DNA from: a virus
Lineage: Duplodnaviria > Heunggongvirae > Uroviricota > Caudoviricetes
Direction: 5' to 3' (one strand)
Virus record (IMG/VR): IMGVR_UViG_2565956600_000003
Length of the DNA stretch: 8,188 nt
Below are positions 482-8,188 of the stretch, in pieces. The stretch's first letter is position 1. Each line of letters begins with the position of its first letter. The position numbers and the translations under genes are program-made. The notes under the pieces are model-generated. The model was not told where the DNA came from. It saw only the letters and a program-made list of their open reading frames with translations, and did no database searches.

Positions 482-1672
482 ATGAGTGACTATCATCACG
501 GCGTGCAGGTGCTGGAGATTAACGACGGCACACGCGTCATTTCCACCGTATCCACTGCCATTGTCGGCATGGTCTGCACGGCCAGCGATGCGGATGCGGA
601 AACCTTCCCCCTCAATAAACCGGTGCTGATTACCAATGTGCAGAGTGCAATTGCAAAGGCCGGTAAAAAAGGCACGCTGGCGGCATCGTTGCAGGCCATC
701 GCCGACCAGTCAAAACCGGTCACCGTTGTTGTGCGTGTGGAAGACGGCACCGGCGACGACGAAGAAACGAAACTCGCGCAGACCGTTTCCAATATCATCG
801 GCACCACCGACGAAAACGGTCAGTACACCGGACTAAAAGCCCTGATGGGCGCTGAGTCGGTTACCGGCGTTAAACCGCGTATTCTCGGCGTACCGGGACT
901 GGATACCAAAGAGGTGGCTGTTGCACTGGCATCAGTCTGTCAGAAGCTGCGCGCTTTCGGGTATATCAGCGCATGGGGCTGTAAAACCATTTCCGAGGTG
1001 AAAGCCTACCGCCAGAATTTCAGCCAGCGTGAACTGATGGTTATCTGGCCGGATTTCCTCGCATGGGATACGGCCACCAGTACCACCGCCACCGCGTATG
1101 CCACCGCCCGTGCGCTGGGTCTGCGTGCCAGAATCGACCAGGAGCAGGGCTGGCATAAAACGCTGTCCAACGTCGGGGTAAACGGTGTTACCGGCATCAG
1201 TGCCTCTGTATTCTGGGATTTGCAGGAGTCCGGCACCGATGCTGACCTGTTGAATGAGTCAGGTGTCACAACGCTGATTCGCCGTGACGGTTTCCGATTC
1301 TGGGGTAACCGTACCTGCTCTGATGACCCGCTGTTCCTCTTTGAAAACTACACCCGCACCGCGCAGGTGCTGGCCGACACGATGGCTGAGGCGCACATGT
1401 GGGCGGTGGACAAGCCCATCACCGCAACGCTGATTCGCGACATCGTTGACGGCATCAATGCCAAATTCCGTGAGCTGAAAACAAACGGCTATATCGTGGA
1501 TGCGACCTGCTGGTTCAGCGAAGAATCCAACGATGCGGAAACCCTTAAGGCCGGAAAACTGTATATCGACTACGACTATACCCCGGTGCCTCCTCTTGAA
1601 AACCTGACCCTGCGCCAGCGTATTACCGATAAATACCTGGCAAATCTGGTCACTTCGGTTAACAGCAATTAA
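482..1672 (+). CDS. FI: Contractile tail sheath protein (P2 gpFI family)
   Basis: 396-aa ORF with ATG start and SD-like GGAG upstream. Sequence and length match what I recall of P2 gpFI (MSDYHHGVQVLEIN...). Followed 12 nt later by the tube gene, as in P2. Confidence 0.95.
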   Translation: MSDYHHGVQVLEINDGTRVISTVSTAIVGMVCTASDADAETFPLNKPVLITNVQSAIAKAGKKGTLAASLQAIADQSKPVTVVVRVEDGTGDDEETKLAQTVSNIIGTTDENGQYTGLKALMGAESVTGVKPRILGVPGLDTKEVAVALASVCQKLRAFGYISAWGCKTISEVKAYRQNFSQRELMVIWPDFLAWDTATSTTATAYATARALGLRARIDQEQGWHKTLSNVGVNGVTGISASVFWDLQESGTDADLLNESGVTTLIRRDGFRFWGNRTCSDDPLFLFENYTRTAQVLADTMAEAHMWAVDKPITATLIRDIVDGINAKFRELKTNGYIVDATCWFSEESNDAETLKAGKLYIDYDYTPVPPLENLTLRQRITDKYLANLVTSVNSN

Positions 1673-1684
1673 GGAGCCTGACCG

Positions 1685-2203
1685 ATGGCAATGCCGCGCA
1701 AACTCAAGTTAATGAACGTCTTTCTGAACGGCTACAGCTATCAGGGCGTTGCAAAGTCCGTCACGCTGCCAAAACTGACCCGTAAGCTCGAAAACTATCG
1801 CGGTGCTGGGATGAACGGCAGCGCACCGGTAGACCTCGGCCTTGATGACGATGCGCTGTCAATGGAGTGGTCGCTCGGTGGCTTCCCGGATTCGGTTATC
1901 TGGGAGCTTTACGCCTCAACCGGTGTGGATGCCGTGCCGATTCGTTTTGCAGGCTCTTACCAGCGCGACGATACCGGCGAAACGGTGGCCGTCGAAGTGG
2001 TCATGCGTGGACGTCAGAAAGAAATCGACACCGGCGAGGGTAAACAGGGAGAAGACACCGAGTCGAAAATCTCCGTGGTCTGCACCTATTTCCGGCTGAC
2101 GATGGACGGTAAGGAGCTGGTCGAAATCGACACCATCAACATGATTGAGAAGGTGAACGGCGTCGACCGGCTGGAGCAACACCGCCGAAATATCGGCCTG
2201 TGA
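1685..2203 (+). CDS. FII: Tail tube protein (P2 gpFII family)
   Basis: 172-aa ORF. Strong SD AAGGAG at 1671-1676, overlapping the FI stop. Length and sequence are consistent with P2 gpFII. Synteny sheath then tube. Confidence 0.95.
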   Translation: MAMPRKLKLMNVFLNGYSYQGVAKSVTLPKLTRKLENYRGAGMNGSAPVDLGLDDDALSMEWSLGGFPDSVIWELYASTGVDAVPIRFAGSYQRDDTGETVAVEVVMRGRQKEIDTGEGKQGEDTESKISVVCTYFRLTMDGKELVEIDTINMIEKVNGVDRLEQHRRNIGL

Positions 2204-2259
2204 TTTTCATCCGGTCAGCCTGGCTGACCGGTTAACCCTGATTCAGAAGTGAGAAAACC

Positions 2260-2535
2260 ATGAACAAAGAAAATGTCATTACCCTGGAAAATCCGGTCAA
2301 GCGTGGTGAGCAGGTCATCGAACAGGTCACGCTGATGAAACCCAATGCCGGGACGCTGCGCGGTGTCAGTCTGGCAGCGGTCGCAAACTCCGAAGTTGAT
2401 GCACTAATTAAGGTGTTGCCGCGCATGACGGCACCGATGCTGACCGAGCAGGAAGTCGCCGCGCTGGAACTGCCTGACCTTGTGGCGCTGGCCGGTAAGG
2501 TGGTCGGTTTTTTGTCGCCGAACTCGGTGCAGTAA
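2260..2535 (+). CDS. E: Tail assembly chaperone gpE (zero-frame product)
   Basis: 91-aa ORF placed between the tube and tape-measure genes, as P2 gpE is. Contains the slippery run near its 3' end. Confidence 0.9.
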   Translation: MNKENVITLENPVKRGEQVIEQVTLMKPNAGTLRGVSLAAVANSEVDALIKVLPRMTAPMLTEQEVAALELPDLVALAGKVVGFLSPNSVQ

Positions 2536-2687
2536 CGTTCCCGAAAAATCTCTCGGTCGATGACCTGATGGCGGATGTGGCAGTGATATTTCACTGGCCG
2601 CCATCAGAACTGTATCCCATGAGCCTGACCGAACTCATCACATGGCGCGAAAAGGCGCTCCGGCGAAGCGGAAACACGAATGAGTAA
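2260..2687 (+). CDS. E+E': Tail assembly chaperone gpE+E', predicted product of a programmed -1 ribosomal frameshift
   Basis: Slippery heptamer T_TTT_TTG at 2508-2514 in the E frame. I translated the -1 frame from 2514 by hand: it is open for 57 codons (VAELGAVTFPKNLSVDDLMADVAVIFHWPPSELYPMSLTELITWREKALRRSGNTNE) and ends at TAA 2685-2687, overlapping the T start at 2680. Predicted fusion is about 142 aa, the size expected for P2 gpE+E'. Analogous to lambda G/GT. Confidence 0.75.
2508..2514 (+). other. Programmed -1 frameshift slippery site (T TTT TTG)
   Basis: Canonical X_XXY_YYZ heptamer in the E reading frame, positioned so that a -1 slip yields the long E' extension. Confidence 0.7.
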
Positions 2688-5127
2688 CAATGTAAAATTA
2701 CAGGTATTGCTCAGGGCTGTTGACCAGGCATCCCGCCCGTTTAAATCCATCCGCACAGCGAGTAAGTCGCTGTCGGGGGATATCCGGGAAACACAAAAAT
2801 CACTGCGCGAGCTGAACGGTCACGCATCCCGTATTGAGGGATTTCGCAAGACCAGTGCACAGCTTGCCGTGACTGGTCATGCACTTGAAAAGGCACGGCA
2901 GGAAGCTGAAGCCCTTGCCACACAGTTTAAAAATACCGAACGACCGACCCGTGCTCAGGTGAAAGTGCTGGAATCCGCAAAGCGTGCGACGGAGGACTTA
3001 CAGGCGAAATATAACCGCCTGACGGATTCCGTTAAACGCCAGCAGCGGGAACTGGCCGCTGTGGGAATTAATACCCGCAATCTTGCACATGATGAGCAGG
3101 GGCTGAAAAACCGTATCAGTGAAACCACCGCACAGCTTAATCGTCAGCGTGACGCGCTGGCGCGTGTCAGTGCGCAACAGGCAAAACTTAACGCAGTCAA
3201 ACAGCGTTATCAGGCAGGAAAGGAACTGGCCGGAAATATGGCCTCAGTGGGCGCTGCCGGTGTGGGGATTGCTGCTGCGGGAACGATGGCCGGAGTTAAG
3301 TTGCTGATGCCCGGTTATGAGTTTGCGCAGAAAAACTCAGAATTGCAGGCCGTGCTAGGTGTGGCAAAAGACTCCGCCGAAATGACCGCACTACGCAAAC
3401 AGGCGCGCCAGCTCGGCGACAATACCGCCGCCTCGGCGGATGATGCGGCCGGTGCACAGATAATCATCGCGAAAGCGGGTGGGGATGTTGATGCCATTCA
3501 GGCGGCAACGCCGGTCACGCTGAATATGGCGCTGGCGAACCGCCGCACGATGGAAGAAAACGCCGCCCTGCTGATGGGGATGAAATCCGCCTTTCAGCTT
3601 TCAAACGATAAGGTCGCTCATATCGGGGATGTTCTCTCCATGACGATGAACAAAACCGCCGCCGATTTTGACGGCATGAGCGATGCGCTGACCTATGCCG
3701 CACCTGTGGCAAAAAATGCCGGTGTCAGCATTGAAGAAACCGCCGCAATGGTCGGGGCGCTGCATGATGCAAAAATCACAGGCTCAATGGCGGGGACGGG
3801 AAGCCGTGCCGTGTTAAGCCGCCTGCAGGCACCGACGGGAAAAGCATGGGATGCACTCAAAGAGCTTGGTGTGAAAACCTCAGACAGTAAGGGAAACACC
3901 CGGCCAGTATTTACCATTCTGAAAGAAATGCAGGCCAGTTTTGAGAAAAACCGGCTCGGTACTGCCCAGCAGGCTGAATACATGAAAACCATTTTCGGGG
4001 AGGAGGCCAGCTCAGCCGCTGCTGTGCTGATGACTGCCGCCTCAACCGGAAAGCTGGACAAACTGACCGCTGCGTTTAAAGCCTCAGACGGGAAGACCGC
4101 AGAGCTGGTAAATATCATGCAGGACAACCTCGGCGGTGACTTTAAGGAGTTTCAGTCCGCTTATGAGGCGGTGGGGACTGACCTGTTTGACCAGCAGGAA
4201 GGCGCGCTGCGTAAGCTCACACAGACGGCCACAAAGTATGTGTTAAAACTCGACGGCTGGATCCAGAAAAACAAATCACTGGCGTCAACCATCGGCCTCA
4301 TTGTCGGTGGCGCGCTGGCGCTGACTGGCGTCATCGGTGCCATTGGCCTCGTAGCCTGGCCGGTTATCACCGGCATCAATGCCATCATCGCGGCAGCAGG
4401 CGCAATGGGGGCAATTTTCACGACGGTTGGCAGTGCCGTTATGACGGCCATCGGGGCGATTAGCTGGCCGGTAGTGGCCGTGGTGGCCGCCATTGTCGCC
4501 GGAGCGTTACTTATCCGTAAATACTGGGGGCCTGTCAGCGCATTCTTTGGCGGTGTGGTGGAAGGGCTGAAAGCGGCATTTGCGCCGGTGGGGGAACTGT
4601 TCACGCCACTGAAGCCGGTGTTTGACTGGCTGGGCGAAAAGTTACAGGCCGCGTGGCAGTGGTTTAAAAACCTGATTGCCCCGGTTAAAGCCACCCAGGA
4701 CACCCTGAACCGTTGCCGTGACACGGGCGTCATGTTCGGGCAGGCACTGGCTGACGCGTTGATGCTGCCGCTTAATGCGTTCAACAAACTGCGCAGTGGT
4801 ATTGACTGGGTACTGGAAAAACTCGGTGTTATCAACAAAGAGTCAGACACACTTGACCAGACCGCCGCAAGGACTCATGCCGCCACGTATGGCACCGGTG
4901 GTTATATTCCGGCGACCAGCTCTTATGCAGGCTATCAGGCTTATCAGCCGGTCACGGCACCGGCTGGCCGCTCTTATGTAGACCAGAGTAAAAACGAATA
5001 TCACATCAGCCTGACGGGTGGTACTGCGCCGGGGACACCGCTTGACCGCCAGTTACAGGATGCGCTCGAAAAATACGAGCGGGATAAACGTGCGCGCGCC
5101 CGTGCCAGCATGATGCATGACGGTTAA
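2680..5127 (+). CDS. T: Tail tape measure protein (P2 gpT family)
   Basis: 815-aa ORF. N-terminal region is coiled-coil-like (Q/R/K/A/L-rich); the central part has long Gly/Ala/Ile/Val-rich hydrophobic segments typical of tape-measure proteins. Follows the frameshift chaperone pair, as in P2. Confidence 0.95.
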   Translation: MSNNVKLQVLLRAVDQASRPFKSIRTASKSLSGDIRETQKSLRELNGHASRIEGFRKTSAQLAVTGHALEKARQEAEALATQFKNTERPTRAQVKVLESAKRATEDLQAKYNRLTDSVKRQQRELAAVGINTRNLAHDEQGLKNRISETTAQLNRQRDALARVSAQQAKLNAVKQRYQAGKELAGNMASVGAAGVGIAAAGTMAGVKLLMPGYEFAQKNSELQAVLGVAKDSAEMTALRKQARQLGDNTAASADDAAGAQIIIAKAGGDVDAIQAATPVTLNMALANRRTMEENAALLMGMKSAFQLSNDKVAHIGDVLSMTMNKTAADFDGMSDALTYAAPVAKNAGVSIEETAAMVGALHDAKITGSMAGTGSRAVLSRLQAPTGKAWDALKELGVKTSDSKGNTRPVFTILKEMQASFEKNRLGTAQQAEYMKTIFGEEASSAAAVLMTAASTGKLDKLTAAFKASDGKTAELVNIMQDNLGGDFKEFQSAYEAVGTDLFDQQEGALRKLTQTATKYVLKLDGWIQKNKSLASTIGLIVGGALALTGVIGAIGLVAWPVITGINAIIAAAGAMGAIFTTVGSAVMTAIGAISWPVVAVVAAIVAGALLIRKYWGPVSAFFGGVVEGLKAAFAPVGELFTPLKPVFDWLGEKLQAAWQWFKNLIAPVKATQDTLNRCRDTGVMFGQALADALMLPLNAFNKLRSGIDWVLEKLGVINKESDTLDQTAARTHAATYGTGGYIPATSSYAGYQAYQPVTAPAGRSYVDQSKNEYHISLTGGTAPGTPLDRQLQDALEKYERDKRARARASMMHDG

Positions 5128-5141
5128 GGAGGTGACGAAAA

Positions 5142-5621
5142 ATGATGCTCGCGTTAGGTATGTTTGTTTTTATGCGCCAGACGCTGCCACACCAGACCAT
5201 GCAGCGTGAATCAGATTATCGCTGGCCGTCAAATTCCCGTATCGGTAAACGGGATGCCTACCAGTTTCTCGGTGTGGGTGAGGAAAACATGACGCTTGCC
5301 GGCGTGCTTTATCCCGAACTGACCGGCGGGAAGCTGACGATGACCACGCTCAGGCTGATGGCAGAGGAAGGCCGGGCGTGGCCGTTGCTGGATGGCACCG
5401 GCATGATTTACGGCATGTATGTCATCAGCAGGGTGAGTGAAACAGGGAGTATTTTCTTTGCAGACGGCACACCCCGGAAAATTGATTTTACGCTGTCGCT
5501 CACCCGTGTTGATGAATCACTGGCCGCGCTTTATGGCGATATCGGTAAACAGGCGGAATCGCTCATCGGTAAGGCTGGCAGTATGGCGGCTAAATTCACG
5601 GGTATGACGGGGGCGGAATAA
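5142..5621 (+). CDS. U: Tail protein gpU (P2 gpU family; tail completion / tube-initiator-like)
   Basis: 159-aa ORF. Strong SD AGGAGGTG at 5128-5135. Its stop overlaps the D start (TAATG at 5619-5623). Length and position match P2 gpU. Confidence 0.9.
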   Translation: MMLALGMFVFMRQTLPHQTMQRESDYRWPSNSRIGKRDAYQFLGVGEENMTLAGVLYPELTGGKLTMTTLRLMAEEGRAWPLLDGTGMIYGMYVISRVSETGSIFFADGTPRKIDFTLSLTRVDESLAALYGDIGKQAESLIGKAGSMAAKFTGMTGAE

Positions 5622-6784
5622 TGCTGGATGCGCGGACATTTGATGCAGGCAGTACGCTGACGCCGGATTACATGCTGATGCTCGACAGCAGGGATATTAC
5701 CGGCAATATCAGCGACCGTCTGATGAGCATGACCCTGACGGATAACCGGGGCTTTGAGGCTGATCAGCTTGATATTGAACTGAACGATGCCGACGGGCAG
5801 GTCGGGCTGCCGATTCGTGGCGCTATCCTGACGGTGTATATCGGCTGGAAAGGTTTTGCCCTTGTATGCAAAGGGAAATTTACCGTTGATGAGGTTGAAC
5901 ACCGGGGCGCGCCGGATGTGGTCACCATCCGCGCCCGGAGTGCAGATTTTCGCGGGACGCTCAATTCCCGCCGTGAAGGCTCCTGGCATGACACCACGCT
6001 CGGTGCGATTGTTGAGGCAATAGCCTCCCGTAACAAGCTGGAAGCCAGTGTCGCTCCGCCACTGGCCGGAATTAAAATCCCGCACATCGACCAGTCGCAG
6101 GAGTCCGATGCGAAATTCCTGACCCGTCTTGCTGAACGCAACGGCGGTGAGGTGTCGGTAAAAATGGGAAAACTGTTGTTTCTCAAAGCGGGGCAGGGGG
6201 TGACGGCCAGCGGTAAGAAAATCCCGCAGGTCACCATCACCCGCAGCGACGGCGACCGTCATTATTTTGCGATTGCTGACCGTGGAGCCTACACCGGCGT
6301 AACGGCAAAGTGGTTACACACCAAAGACCCGAAGCCGCAAAAGCAGAAGGTAAAACTGAAACGCAAAAAGAAAGAGAAACACCTGCGCGCACTGGAGCAC
6401 CCGAAAGCGAAACCGGTCACGCAGAAGAAAGCACCAAAAGTACCGGAAGCGCGCGAAGGTGAATACATGGCCGGTGAGGCTGACAACGTTTTTGCCCTGA
6501 CCACGGTATATGCCACGAAAGCGCAGGCAATGCGCGCCGCTCAGGCGAAGTGGGACAAACTGCAACGGGGCGTTGCGGAGTTCTCCATCAGCCTTGCCAC
6601 TGGTCGGGCTGATATTTACACGGAAACGCCGGTCAGAGTGTCAGGCTTTAAGCGCGTCATAGACGAGCAGGACTGGACAGTCACTAAGGTGACACATTTT
6701 CTGAATAATAGCGGCTTCACGACGTCCCTGGAGCTTGAGGTCAGGCTTTCTGATGTGGAGTACGAAACAGAAGATGATGAGTGA
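5621..6784 (+). CDS. D: Tail protein gpD (P2 late control gene D family; baseplate hub-like)
   Basis: 387-aa ORF, the same length as P2 gpD. Translationally coupled to U. Contains a Lys/Pro-rich low-complexity segment at about aa 235-276. Confidence 0.9.
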   Translation: MLDARTFDAGSTLTPDYMLMLDSRDITGNISDRLMSMTLTDNRGFEADQLDIELNDADGQVGLPIRGAILTVYIGWKGFALVCKGKFTVDEVEHRGAPDVVTIRARSADFRGTLNSRREGSWHDTTLGAIVEAIASRNKLEASVAPPLAGIKIPHIDQSQESDAKFLTRLAERNGGEVSVKMGKLLFLKAGQGVTASGKKIPQVTITRSDGDRHYFAIADRGAYTGVTAKWLHTKDPKPQKQKVKLKRKKKEKHLRALEHPKAKPVTQKKAPKVPEAREGEYMAGEADNVFALTTVYATKAQAMRAAQAKWDKLQRGVAEFSISLATGRADIYTETPVRVSGFKRVIDEQDWTVTKVTHFLNNSGFTTSLELEVRLSDVEYETEDDE

Positions 6785-6801
6785 TGTTTTATTTTATCTA
6801 T

Positions 6802-6830
6802 TTGTTTTGTAAGGATAAATTAACTAAAAT
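6802..6830 (+). promoter_or_regulatory. Putative sigma70-type promoter for ogr
   Basis: AT-rich region immediately after the D stop. TTGTTT (6802-6807), 17-bp spacer, TAAAAT (6825-6830), about 35 nt upstream of the ogr ATG. Sequence-based only. Confidence 0.4.
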
Positions 6831-6864
6831 GGCACCATCAACAAAACCGGAAGAGGTGCTCGCG

Positions 6865-7083
6865 ATGTTTCATTGTCCTTTATGCCAGCATGCCGCACAT
6901 GCGCGTACAAGCCGCTATATCACTGACACGACAAAAGAGCGTTATCACCAGTGTCAGAACGTGAATTGCAGCGCCACGTTCATCACTTATGAGTCGGTAC
7001 AGCGATACATCGTGAAGCCGGGAGAAGTCCACGCCGTGAGGCCGCACCCGTTGCCGTCAGGGCAGCAAATTATGTGGATGTAA
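6865..7083 (+). CDS. ogr: Ogr, zinc-finger transcriptional activator of late genes
   Basis: 72-aa product MFHCPLCQHAAHARTSRYITDTTKERYHQCQNVNC... with the Cys-X2-Cys-X22-Cys-X4-Cys zinc-binding pattern of P2 Ogr. SD AAGAGG at 6851-6856. The track ORF starting at 6781 is a GTG-initiated upstream extension that I do not accept. Confidence 0.9.
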   Translation: MFHCPLCQHAAHARTSRYITDTTKERYHQCQNVNCSATFITYESVQRYIVKPGEVHAVRPHPLPSGQQIMWM

Positions 7084-7094
7084 TTACAAACAGG

Positions 7095-7120
7095 AAGCCC
7101 CTCAGTCGAGGGGCTTTTTT
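7095..7120 (+). terminator. Intrinsic terminator after ogr (end of late transcription)
   Basis: Hairpin AAGCCCCTC-agtc-GAGGGGCTT (7095-7116) running into TTTTTT (7115-7120), 12 nt after the ogr stop. Confidence 0.8.
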
Positions 7121-7183
7121 GTCGATGTGGTCAATGTGTGGACGTGACCAGAAATAAATCCTTTTATTTCATGTAATTAGATA

Positions 7184-7210
7184 TTAAAAAATGTCACCAA
7201 TAACTGACAT
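7184..7210 (-). pseudogene. pflA: pflA 5' remnant: native start codon plus 5 codons fused to phage sequence, in-frame stop after 8 codons
   Basis: The minus strand reads ATG TCA GTT ATT GGT GAC ATT TTT TAA (MSVIGDIF*). PflA, as I recall it, begins MSVIGRIHSFESCG..., so the first 15 nt match and the sequence then diverges into AT-rich phage DNA. Confidence 0.6.
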
Positions 7211-7330
7211 TGCGGTGTTTCTCCAGATGTGGCCCATCTGAGGCCGTGTTGGTGCGCAGCTCGAAGGCTACGTCGAGTCTGTTTTGGCAGTCACCTTAAA
7301 GTATAGATAGCTGACAAAAAAGGCTCTCGT
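7211..7330 (-). promoter_or_regulatory. Host pflB-pflA intergenic region (expected to carry the pflA promoter and RBS)
   Basis: Located between the pflB terminator and the pflA start codon on the minus strand. No specific -35/-10 assignment was made. Confidence 0.4.
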
Positions 7331-7333
7331 GCT

Positions 7334-7359
7334 AAAAAAGGCCCCACTTTCGTGGAGCC
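7334..7359 (-). terminator. Intrinsic terminator downstream of pflB
   Basis: On the minus strand: GGCTCCAC-gaaa-GTGGGGCC (8-bp stem with one G-U pair, GAAA tetraloop) followed by TTTTTT. A second T-run follows about 12 nt later. Confidence 0.7.
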
Positions 7360-7401
7360 TTTATTGTACGCTTTTTACTGTACGATTTCAGTCAAATCTA
7401 A

Positions 7402-8188
7402 TTACATAGATTGAGTGAAGGTACGAGTAATAACGTCCTGCTGCTGTTCTTTAGTCAGCGAGTTGAAACGTACTGCGTAGCCAGATACACGGATGGTCAG
7501 CTGCGGATATTTTTCCGGGTTTTCCATCGCGTCGAGCAGCATTTCACGGTTCATCACGTTAACGTTCAGGTGCTGACCACCTTCGATGGATGCTTCGTGG
7601 TGGAAGTAACCATCCATCAGACCAGCCAGGTTGGTCTTACGAACTTCGTCGTCTTTACCCAGTGCGTTCGGAACGATAGAGAAGGTGTAGGAGATACCAT
7701 CTTTAGCGTAAGCAAACGGCAGTTTAGCAACGGAAGTCAGAGACGCTACAGCACCTTTCTGGTCACGACCGTGCATCGGGTTAGCACCCGGTCCGAACGG
7801 CGCGCCAGCACGACGACCGTCTGGGGTGTTACCAGTTTTCTTACCATACACAACGTTAGAAGTGATGGTCAGAACAGACTGAGTCGGGATAGCGTCACGG
7901 TAGGTGTGCAGTTTCTGAATTTTCTTCATGAAACGTTCTACCAGGTCAACAGCCAGGTCATCTACACGCGGATCATTGTTACCAAACTGCGGGTATTCGC
8001 CTTCGATTTCGAAGTCGATAGCCAGACCGTCTTCGTCACGAATCGGTTTAACTTTCGCATATTTGATTGCAGACAGGGAGTCAGCAGCAACGGACAGACC
8101 AGCGATACCACACGCCATGGTGCGGATAACGTCACGGTCGTGCAGCGCCATCAGAGAGGCTTCGTAGCTGTACTTGTCGTGCATGTAG
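7402..8188 (-). CDS. pflB: Pyruvate formate-lyase (formate C-acetyltransferase), C-terminal 261 codons; 5' end outside the window
   Basis: Translation ends ...[33 protein letters not shown], the glycyl-radical motif (RVSGY, Gly codon at 7480-7482) and C-terminus of E. coli-type PflB. The frame is open to the window edge. A close paralogue such as TdcE is less likely given the adjacent pflA start. Confidence 0.9.

What the first reader, a model, noticed from the sequence alone, without database searches (positions are those of the whole stretch)
7121..7215. Prophage attR junction lies inside the first codons of pflA (pyruvate formate-lyase activating enzyme)
Host sequence from pflB through the pflA start codon is intact on the minus strand. 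After ATGTCAGTTATTGGT (MSVIG) it diverges into AT-rich phage DNA and hits a stop after 8 codons. P2-family phages normally sit in intergenic or tRNA-associated sites, so an insertion point in the 5' end of a central anaerobic-metabolism gene is unusual. The AT-rich 7121-7195 segment has an inverted repeat GAAATAA/TTATTTC (7151-7170) and GTGGTCA / GTGACCA direct repeats (7126-7148), which are candidate integrase arm-type or IHF sites of the attP right arm.
Basis: partly seen in the sequence, partly recalled or inferred. Interest (0 to 1): 0.6.

Follow-up and report, generated by a model that had tools for sequence, protein, structure and literature searches.

The report
P2-like prophage junction in pflA
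This is the right-hand junction of a common P2-like prophage that uses an already described attachment site in the first codons of the E. coli gene pflA. The phage appears to give the gene a new start rather than destroy it.

Summary
Window 7196-7208 (ACCAATAACTGAC) is the 13-bp core of an attR junction. To its left lies P2-type phage DNA (tail genes, ogr, terminator, Int arm sites, IHF region). To its right lies E. coli DNA, 434/435 identical to K-12 (pflA start codon, pflB-pflA spacer, pflB 3' end).

The site is neither rare nor new. The junction occurs in 403 of 5426 complete E. coli genomes. It coincides with the published integration coordinate of the viable P2-like phages PhiD145 and PhiD160 (MG1655 950293), and the 12-bp repeat was reported in an O157:H7 lysogen.

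There the phage changes pflA's ATG to AAG and supplies an in-frame ATG plus a 19-codon leader, 31 nt after the int stop codon. In ten divergent sequences from several genera the leader is always 20 codons and open in frame, while the other two frames hold 1-5 stops. It survives next to decayed int remnants, and the leader-bearing 265-aa PflA is the common Salmonella form.

pflA is therefore probably re-headed, not inactivated. This rests on sequence only; expression is untested.

Verdict: known kind, ordinary instance, with one moderately interesting and under-documented detail.

The parts
482..1672 (+). P2-type tail sheath gene (FI)
   Evidence: Pfam Phage_sheath_1, Phage_sheath_1C and Gp18_domIII_N.
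1685..2203 (+). Tail tube gene (FII)
   Evidence: Pfam Phage_tube, E = 5e-60.
2260..2535 (+). Tail assembly chaperone gene (gpE type)
   Evidence: Pfam Phage_TAC_7.
2680..5127 (+). Tape measure gene (gpT)
   Evidence: Pfam PhageMin_Tail.
5142..5621 (+). gpU tail gene
   Evidence: Pfam Phage_P2_GpU.
5621..6784 (+). gpD, late control D / baseplate hub gene
   Evidence: Pfam Phage_GPD. RefSeq annotation in homologous genomes agrees.
6865..7083 (+). ogr, the late-gene activator
   Evidence: Pfam Ogr_Delta. Annotated ogrK in 403 genomes.
7095..7116 (.). ogr/F-operon terminator hairpin (AAGCCCCTC-GACT-GAGGGGCTT)
   Evidence: A 9-bp perfect inverted repeat. It is homologous to the annotated P2 terminator. 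The scan scores it as terminator-like on the minus strand only. On the plus strand a T run follows the stem (direct reading).
7126..7144 (+). Two Int arm-type direct repeats of the P arm: TGTGGTCA (7126-7133) and TGTGGACG (7137-7144)
   Evidence: Located. They lie inside the region homologous to the P2 'Int, P arm' footprint (AF063097 24293-24320, equal to window 7122-7149). They match the consensus tgTGGaCa (PMC3448106).
7153..7186 (.). Region homologous to the P2 IHF footprint; most of the inverted repeat GAAATAAA/TTTATTTC (7151-7170) lies within it
   Evidence: P2 annotation transferred by alignment. Inverted repeat found. Identity to P2 ends near 7171.
7190..7211 (.). 22-bp core-type recombination site of attR: AATGTCA - CCAATAAC - TGACATT (two 7-bp inverted Int core sites around an 8-bp spacer)
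   Evidence: Perfect 7-bp inverted repeat with an 8-bp gap. The same 22 bp in attB and attP are 18/22 identical.
7196..7208 (.). 13-bp identity core shared by attB, attP, attL and attR (ACCAATAACTGAC)
   Evidence: Four-way alignment. Exact matches. It contains the 12-bp repeat ACCAATAACTGA reported at both prophage ends in O157:H7 strain B103 (PMC4928038).
7184..7210 (-). Orphaned pflA 5' stub: native ATG (7210..7208) plus 4 host codons, then 3 phage codons and a stop (MSVIGDIF*)
   Evidence: Translation. K-12 pflA begins at the homologous position.
7211..7401 (-). Native pflB-pflA spacer, holding the pflA Shine-Dalgarno (GGAG; plus-strand CTCC at 7221-7224) and the pflB terminator hairpin (about 7337-7365)
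   Evidence: Within the 434/435 match to K-12, whose only mismatch is at 7330. The Shine-Dalgarno and hairpin are read directly from the sequence; the scan did not score them.
7402..8188 (-). 3' end of pflB (pyruvate formate-lyase)
   Evidence: Pfam PFL-like and Gly_radical. RefSeq pflB annotation.

Best explanation
Window 7121-7215 is the attR junction of a P2-like (Peduovirus) prophage whose tyrosine integrase is of the PhiD145 type.

**Recombination.** The integrase recombines a 22-bp phage core site with a 22-bp host site that spans the pflA start codon. The two sites share a 13-bp identity block, GTCAGTTATTGGT. The window keeps the phage P arm (Int arm repeats, IHF region) joined through the core to host DNA. 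An 8-codon pflA stub stays behind the native pflA promoter and ribosome-binding site.

**The other end.** At attL (not in the window) the rest of pflA lies directly downstream of int on the same strand. Its ATG has become AAG. The phage P' arm provides an ATG and 19 codons in frame, 31 nt after the int stop codon. The lysogen therefore encodes a 265-aa chimeric PflA.

**What is shown and what is inferred.** The junction anatomy and the chimeric reading frame are shown. Two steps are inferred:
- The chimeric gene is translated from the phage ATG.
- It is transcribed either by read-through from the phage Pc (C-int) operon or from a promoter in the int 3' end.
For: **Junction**
- The four att sites show the expected reciprocal arrangement around one 13-bp core.
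- attB and attP are 18/22 identical over a site of 7 + 8 + 7 bp.

**Phage identity**
- The window holds P2 late genes and ogr.
- The P arm is almost base-for-base identical to the annotated P2 attP until about 7171.
- Int of phage 11W and of APEC O78 is a tyrosine recombinase (PF00589 plus PF24624) and is 53% identical to P2 Int.
- 20 sequenced phage records carry a >=99% identical Int.

**Site already described**
- PhiD145 and PhiD160 integrate at MG1655 coordinate 950293 (PMC3448106).
- The core lies at 951066-951078 in the current MG1655 numbering. That is 950289-950301 in the older numbering, using a 777-bp offset that I recall from memory.

**Prevalence**
- attR occurs in 403 and attL in 405 of 5426 complete E. 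coli genomes.

**Re-heading of pflA**
- The attL sequence reads ...ACC AAG TCA GTT ATT GGT CGC..., with an ATG 20 codons upstream. RefSeq annotates a 265-aa pflA there.
- In ten sequences anchored on int or on an int remnant, the leader is always 20 codons with 0 in-frame stops. The other two frames hold 1-5 stops each. Leader nucleotide identity falls to 63-74%. The hosts are E. coli, E. albertii, three Scandinavium species, Pseudescherichia, Rahnella, Salmonella and two metagenomic hosts.
- A purine-rich stretch sits a few nt upstream of the ATG in all ten.
- The leader persists after prophage decay, next to int remnants.
- The leader-bearing 265-aa protein is the common Salmonella PflA, seen on at least 1000 contigs. 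A native-start version of the same protein is seen on 4.
- No terminator-like site is predicted on the pflA strand between Pc and pflA.
- AlphaFold2 models leader residues 1-15 at pLDDT below 50, and the first strand begins at residue 23. Solved PflA structures align from residue 22.
Against: - There is no expression data. Neither a transcript nor an N-terminal peptide was seen.
- The phage Shine-Dalgarno is weak (GAAG or AGAG), compared with GGAG at the native site.
- Promoter-like matches near the leader are no more frequent than in shuffled sequence.
- Variable leader sites show no third-position bias (12/14/14). The peptide sequence itself is therefore not under purifying selection; only its openness, its length and its first seven codons are conserved.
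- Constant length could also reflect spacing constraints between the core and the P' arm in the intasome. The conserved first codons could be Cox or Int binding sites.
- A recent review lists the PhiD145-site prophage ECA29 of Pectobacterium as having 'disrupted' pflA (PMC13492144).
- Identity of this Int with PhiD145 Int was not tested directly. It rests on the shared coordinate.
Confidence: 0.85

Rival explanations
1. Integration simply knocks out pflA. The lysogen lacks PFL-activating enzyme and the in-frame leader is incidental. Excision would then restore the gene, as in an 'active lysogeny' switch.
For: - The native ATG becomes AAG at attL, and the native promoter and ribosome-binding site are left at attR.
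- The phage Shine-Dalgarno is weak, and no promoter scores above chance.
- A review describes ECA29 as disrupting pflA.
Against: - The leader is open, in frame and exactly 20 codons in all ten divergent sequences. The other frames hold 1-5 stops each.
- The leader is kept where int has decayed and excision is impossible.
- The leader-bearing form is the dominant Salmonella PflA. Salmonella is a species that ferments through formate (general knowledge).
- 7.4% of complete E. coli genomes carry the prophage, including gut pathogens.
Confidence: 0.12
2. The leader is conserved only as DNA. It would hold Cox, IHF or Int binding sites and fixed spacing within the attP P' arm. Its open reading frame would then be a by-product.
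For: - In P2 the homologous interval between the core and the P' arm is the Cox footprint.
- There is no third-position bias in leader variation.
- The best-conserved part is the first 7 codons, next to the P' arm repeats.
Against: - DNA-binding constraints do not explain the absence of stops in one frame only.
- They also do not explain retention of the ATG, the purine-rich stretch and the open frame in the Salmonella, L095 and L097 remnants. There int is destroyed and recombination sites have no use.
- The two explanations are not exclusive.
Confidence: 0.1
3. The junction is an assembly chimera or a one-off illegitimate insertion.
For: None found.
Against: - The identical junction occurs in 403 complete genomes from unrelated lineages.
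- The reciprocal junction occurs in 405.
- The attP sequences of isolated phages carry the same core.
Confidence: 0.01

Closest known systems
PhiD145/PhiD160-type site-specific recombination system of P2-like coliphages (Karlsson et al. 2006 J Bacteriol 188:3923; Mandali et al. 2010 Virology 408:64; Nilsson et al. 2011, PMC3448106)
   Same: - The host coordinate is the same: MG1655 950293 falls inside the 13-bp core found here.
- The phage backbone and arm-site consensus are P2-type.
- From my memory of the Mandali abstract (not checked with a tool), the minimal attB is 22 nt with 18 nt identical to attP. This matches the 18/22 measured here.
- PhiECA29 of Pectobacterium is listed as using the same site.
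   Different: I found no difference. I could not compare the PhiD145 int and attP sequences directly, because they are not in the collections. I could not read the two primary papers, so I do not know whether they describe the pflA fusion.
Bacteriophage P2 attP/Int/IHF/Cox system (AF063097)
   Same: - The gene order is the same: D, ogr, terminator, P arm, IHF region, core, then the P' arm inside the int 3' end.
- The P arm and most of the IHF region are nearly identical in sequence.
- The Int proteins are 53% identical.
   Different: - The core and the interval between core and P' arm differ from about window 7172 onwards.
- According to the literature, P2 integrates between genes. This type integrates inside a coding sequence.
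dusA-specific integrases and their islands and prophages (Farrugia et al. 2015, PMC4482086)
   Same: Integration is in the 5' end of a housekeeping gene, and the element characteristically replaces the 5' end with sequence of its own.
   Different: - The integrase family and the target gene are different.
- In dusA the replaced part includes a structural beta strand. Here only the start codon is replaced, and a 19-residue tail that is modelled at low confidence is added.
HK022 integration upstream of torS (promoter replacement), as cited in PMC13492144
   Same: The prophage replaces the native expression signals of a host gene involved in anaerobic metabolism.
   Different: For HK022 only the promoter is replaced. 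Here the start codon and N-terminus are replaced as well, and the effect on expression is unknown.

Membership tests
P2-like (Peduovirus) prophage | P2 late-gene block FI-FII-E-T-U-D followed by ogr next to the attachment site | tested here: met
   Pfam hits for all seven genes. The segment is 96-97% identical in DNA to P2-like phages.
P2-like (Peduovirus) prophage | P2-type attP layout: terminator, two Int arm repeats (tgTGGaCa), IHF region, core, then P' arm repeats in the int 3' end | tested here: met
   Alignment to the annotated P2 genome. Repeats at 7126-7133 and 7137-7144. The P' arm repeats ATGTCCA x2 are seen in attL and attP.
Integrase-mediated site-specific insertion (Campbell model) | attB, attP, attL and attR share one core with reciprocal flanks | tested here: met
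   Four-way alignment. Flank identities.
Integrase-mediated site-specific insertion (Campbell model) | A tyrosine recombinase gene lies next to attL | tested here: met
   A 331-aa Int lies directly upstream of pflA in APEC O78. It matches PF00589 and PF24624. This gene lies outside the window.
PhiD145-type integration system | Integration at MG1655 coordinate 950293 (start of pflA) | tested here: met
   Table 1 of PMC3448106. The core is at 951066-951078 in NC_000913.3. That equals 950289-950301 after the 777-bp version offset, which I recall from memory.
PhiD145-type integration system | Int and attP sequences match those of PhiD145 itself | not testable with these tools
   AM158280, AM159077 and AJ298559 are not in any collection offered. 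The primary papers are not held.
Elements that replace the 5' end of their target gene (dusA-island type) | The element supplies an in-frame start codon and N-terminal codons for the target gene | tested here: met
   attL sequence and translation. Conserved in ten sequences.
Elements that replace the 5' end of their target gene (dusA-island type) | The chimeric gene is expressed and functional | not testable with these tools
   Only indirect evidence is available: retention after prophage decay and dominance in Salmonella.

The most novel reading that the evidence does not exclude
PhiD145-type P2-like phages carry a conserved surrogate 5' end for pflA between the attP core and int. It consists of a weak Shine-Dalgarno, an ATG and a 19-codon flexible leader.

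Every lysogen would then make a chimeric, functional PFL-activating enzyme under phage-derived expression signals.

This phage-derived gene head would have become permanently fixed in some lineages after the prophage decayed. The clearest case is Salmonella, where a SopD-family effector gene sits in the remnant between pflB and pflA.

The probability given is that this is both true and not already described in the primary PhiD145 papers, which I could not read.
Probability: 0.35. Interest if true: 0.45.

Novelty: already known. Interest (0 to 1): 0.3.

Why it matters
As given, the finding matters little. It is one more copy of a frequent prophage at a published attachment site.

The attL side is more useful. 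It would be a clear example of a phage that integrates into the start of an important metabolic gene and pays for it by carrying a replacement gene head. If that reading is right, the following follow:
- Annotating such lysogens as 'pflA disrupted' is misleading.
- In roughly one E. coli genome in thirteen, and in most Salmonella, PflA would depend on phage-derived translation signals and probably phage-derived transcription signals.
- The Salmonella pflB / SopD-family gene / pflA arrangement would be the scar of such a prophage.

Tried and rejected
- **IMG/VR scan with Int.** It returned 80 loci, all 99-100% identical, and nearly all end at the int stop codon. They were of no use for the leader analysis.
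- **60-aa N-terminal protein query.** It returned almost only short fragments. Two informative leader variants were recovered from it.
- **Promoter scans.** Scans upstream of the chimeric pflA in E. coli attL, Salmonella and L095 gave no more matches than shuffled sequence, and the matches are not at conserved positions. I make no promoter claim.
- **Codon-position test on the leader.** Variable sites fall 12/14/14 across codon positions. I therefore rejected the idea that the leader peptide has a sequence-specific function beyond its first residues.
- **Cluster size misreading.** I first took the 6565-member cluster of P0121 to be chimeric Salmonella PflA. One search showed it is a mixed 90% cluster of native and chimeric proteins from many genera. 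Exact look-ups replaced it.
- **Literature.** Searches combining pflA with prophage terms found only the ECA29 mention and nothing on E. coli. Karlsson 2006 is not held.
- **Assembly artefact.** Rejected on the strength.

Full report
**1. What is in the window**

The window is E. coli DNA. Positions 482-7083 hold the right end of a P2-like prophage: tail sheath, tail tube, gpE, tape measure, gpU, gpD and ogr (Pfam). This segment is 96-97% identical to sequenced Peduovirus phages. Positions 7402-8188 on the minus strand are the 3' end of pflB.

The finding lies between these two blocks. Reading the minus strand from 7210 gives ATG TCA GTT ATT GGT GAC ATT TTT TAA, which is MSVIGDIF*.

**2. Mapping the junction**

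I compared four sequences:
- the window (attR);
- the empty locus of K-12 MG1655 (attB);
- the attachment region of phage 11W (attP);
- the far end of the same prophage in APEC O78 (attL).

The four-way alignment shows one invariant block, GTCAGTTATTGGT in the pflA sense. On the plus strand it is ACCAATAACTGAC at window 7196-7208, with reciprocal flanks on either side.

The flank identities are as follows:
- From the core rightwards the window is 434/435 identical to K-12.
- Left of the core it is 37/40 identical to 11W and 12/40 identical to K-12.

The core sits inside a 22-bp site built as 7 + 8 + 7 bp. In the window it reads AATGTCA-CCAATAAC-TGACATT, a perfect inverted repeat. This is the usual layout of two integrase core-binding sites around an overlap region. 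The same 22 bp in attB and attP are 18/22 identical. In APEC O78 the two cores lie 31,787 bp apart.

**3. The phage arm in the finding's coordinates**

From the ogr terminator to about 7171 the window is nearly identical to phage P2, and the P2 record carries experimentally based annotation. Transferring those coordinates gives:
- window 7122-7149 as the Int P-arm footprint;
- window 7153-7186 as the IHF footprint;
- window 7185-7212 as the position of the core.

The arm repeats are TGTGGTCA (7126-7133) and TGTGGACG (7137-7144). They match the published P2-type consensus tgTGGaCa (PMC3448106).

The integrase of this phage type is a tyrosine recombinase. It is 53% identical to P2 Int.

**4. The site is common and already described**

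- The attR junction is present in 403 of 5426 complete E. coli genomes and attL in 405. These include APEC O78, APEC O18 and some O157:H7 strains.
- Twenty phage records carry a >=99% identical integrase, among them pro483, pro147, 11W, 12W and vB_YpM_46. The type is therefore active.
- Nilsson et al. 2011 list the viable P2-like phages PhiD145 and PhiD160 as integrating at MG1655 coordinate 950293. They list PhiECA29 of Pectobacterium as using the PhiD145 site (PMC3448106).
- In current MG1655 numbering the core is at 951066-951078. That is 950289-950301 in the older numbering, using a 777-bp offset recalled from memory. The published coordinate therefore falls inside the core.
- Rusconi et al. 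2016 reported the 12-bp repeat ACCAATAACTGA at both ends of a pro483-like prophage in O157:H7 strain B103 (PMC4928038).
- From memory, Mandali et al. 2010 reported a 22-nt minimal attB with 18 nt identical to attP. This fits, but I could not read that paper.

**5. What happens to pflA**

At attL, int lies directly upstream of pflA on the same strand. The sequence there reads ...GCT ACC AAG TCA GTT ATT GGT CGC ATT CAC....

The native ATG has become AAG, because attP has an A where attB has a T just outside the identity block. Twenty codons upstream, and 31 nt after the int stop codon, there is an in-frame ATG. The open frame encodes MSNLTNCNTTENTATAGAT-K-SVIGRIH..., 265 aa in all. RefSeq annotates pflA this way.

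The exact chimeric protein was seen on at least 1000 contigs. A Klebsiella version with the same leader was seen on 336.

**6. Is the fusion meaningful?**

Searching GTDB species representatives with the integrase gave intact int-leader-pflA arrangements in E. albertii, three Scandinavium species, Pseudescherichia vulneris and Rahnella ecdela. Protein searches added further leader variants, from Citrobacter and from unnamed hosts.

Three contexts have no intact prophage:
- In Salmonella enterica, pflB is followed by a SopD-family gene, then about 570 nt holding a decayed int 3' end, then the leader and pflA.
- Two metagenomic hosts show int fragments followed by the leader and pflA.

Across the ten DNA sequences the following hold:
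- The leader is always 20 codons.
- It has no in-frame stop, while the other two frames hold 1-5 stops each.
- Leader nucleotide identity to the E. coli leader falls to 63-74% outside Escherichia.
- A purine-rich stretch lies a few nt before the ATG in every case.

An exact look-up shows the leader-bearing 265-aa protein is the common Salmonella PflA. It is named 'MULTISPECIES [Salmonella]' and was seen on at least 1000 contigs. The same protein with a native MSVIG start was seen on 4.

In an AlphaFold2 model, leader residues 1-15 have pLDDT below 50 and the first strand begins at residue 23. Solved PflA structures align from residue 22.

Together this argues that the frame is kept open by selection and that the phage ATG serves as the start codon.

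**7. Limits**

- Variable leader sites are spread evenly over codon positions (12/14/14). The peptide sequence is therefore not constrained beyond its first seven residues (MSNLTxC).
- That N-terminal conservation and the fixed length could partly reflect DNA-binding and spacing needs of the attP P' arm. In P2 this interval is the Cox footprint.
- No promoter is predicted above chance.
- No terminator-like site is predicted on the pflA strand between the C-int region and pflA. Read-through from the phage Pc operon is therefore a reasonable source of transcription in intact lysogens. In the Salmonella remnant a local promoter must exist.
- From memory, native pflA is expressed constitutively from its own promoter, so a constitutive phage promoter would be an adequate substitute.
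- None of this was measured.
- A recent review describes ECA29 as disrupting pflA (PMC13492144). My data suggest that wording may not hold, but they do not disprove it for Pectobacterium.

**8. Verdict**

The interpretation as an attR junction inside pflA is right, and the arm-site idea is right in substance.

The claim of unusualness is overstated, because the site is published and frequent. The closest known system is the PhiD145-type P2-like integration module, and every membership feature I could test was met. The closest functional analogue is the dusA-specific islands, which replace the 5' end of their target gene (PMC4482086).

The finding as given is already known. The phage-supplied gene head and its fixation in Salmonella are the only parts that might add something.

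Noticed in passing
L093 1-3798 (Salmonella enterica GCA_010400525.1): The gene order is pflB, a SopD-family gene on the opposite strand (1470-2429), about 570 nt with a decayed int 3' end, then a leader-bearing 265-aa pflA. The region looks like the scar of a PhiD145-type prophage with an effector gene left in it. The leader-bearing PflA is the common Salmonella form, seen on at least 1000 contigs.
   Followed up: partly
L095 2570-3001; L097 1750-2118: Two metagenomic enterobacterial contigs keep an int 3' fragment plus the 20-codon leader fused to pflA, but have no prophage. These appear to be independent cases of the phage-derived gene head outliving the phage.
   Followed up: partly
Protein P0257: A Salmonella-type PflA with the native MSVIG start and an otherwise identical body exists on only 4 contigs. 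It may come from a rare lineage without the scar, or from a recombinant. The genomic context was not seen.
   Followed up: no
Protein P0242: Klebsiella pneumoniae has a 265-aa PflA with exactly the E. coli-type leader, seen on 336 contigs. The same phage type therefore also uses pflA in Klebsiella.
   Followed up: no
window 7095-7116: The ogr terminator hairpin is scored terminator-like on the minus strand, and a T run follows it on the plus strand. In the lysogen it could stop host transcripts from the orphaned pflA promoter before they run antisense into ogr. In free phage it could stop int transcripts.
   Followed up: no
window 7184-7224, minus strand: The native pflA promoter, the GGAG Shine-Dalgarno and the ATG now drive only an 8-codon ORF (MSVIGDIF*). 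I have no evidence that the peptide matters.
   Followed up: no
L002 about 4180-4270 (phage 11W attP), minus strand: In the free phage the leader frame runs through the core into the P arm and encodes a 27-aa ORF, MSNLTNCNTTENTATAGATKSVIGDIF*. Its function, if any, is unknown.
   Followed up: no
PMC4928038: That paper says the pro483-like prophage flanked by ACCAATAACTGA 'disrupts the colicin immunity protein' in O157:H7 strain B103. The repeat is the pflA core found here, so the target gene was probably misnamed.
   Followed up: no
L001 3535-4017 and 7407-8213 (APEC O78 prophage): RefSeq marks the head completion gene and a baseplate gene of this prophage copy as partial pseudogenes. This particular copy may be defective even though the phage type is active elsewhere.
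   Followed up: no
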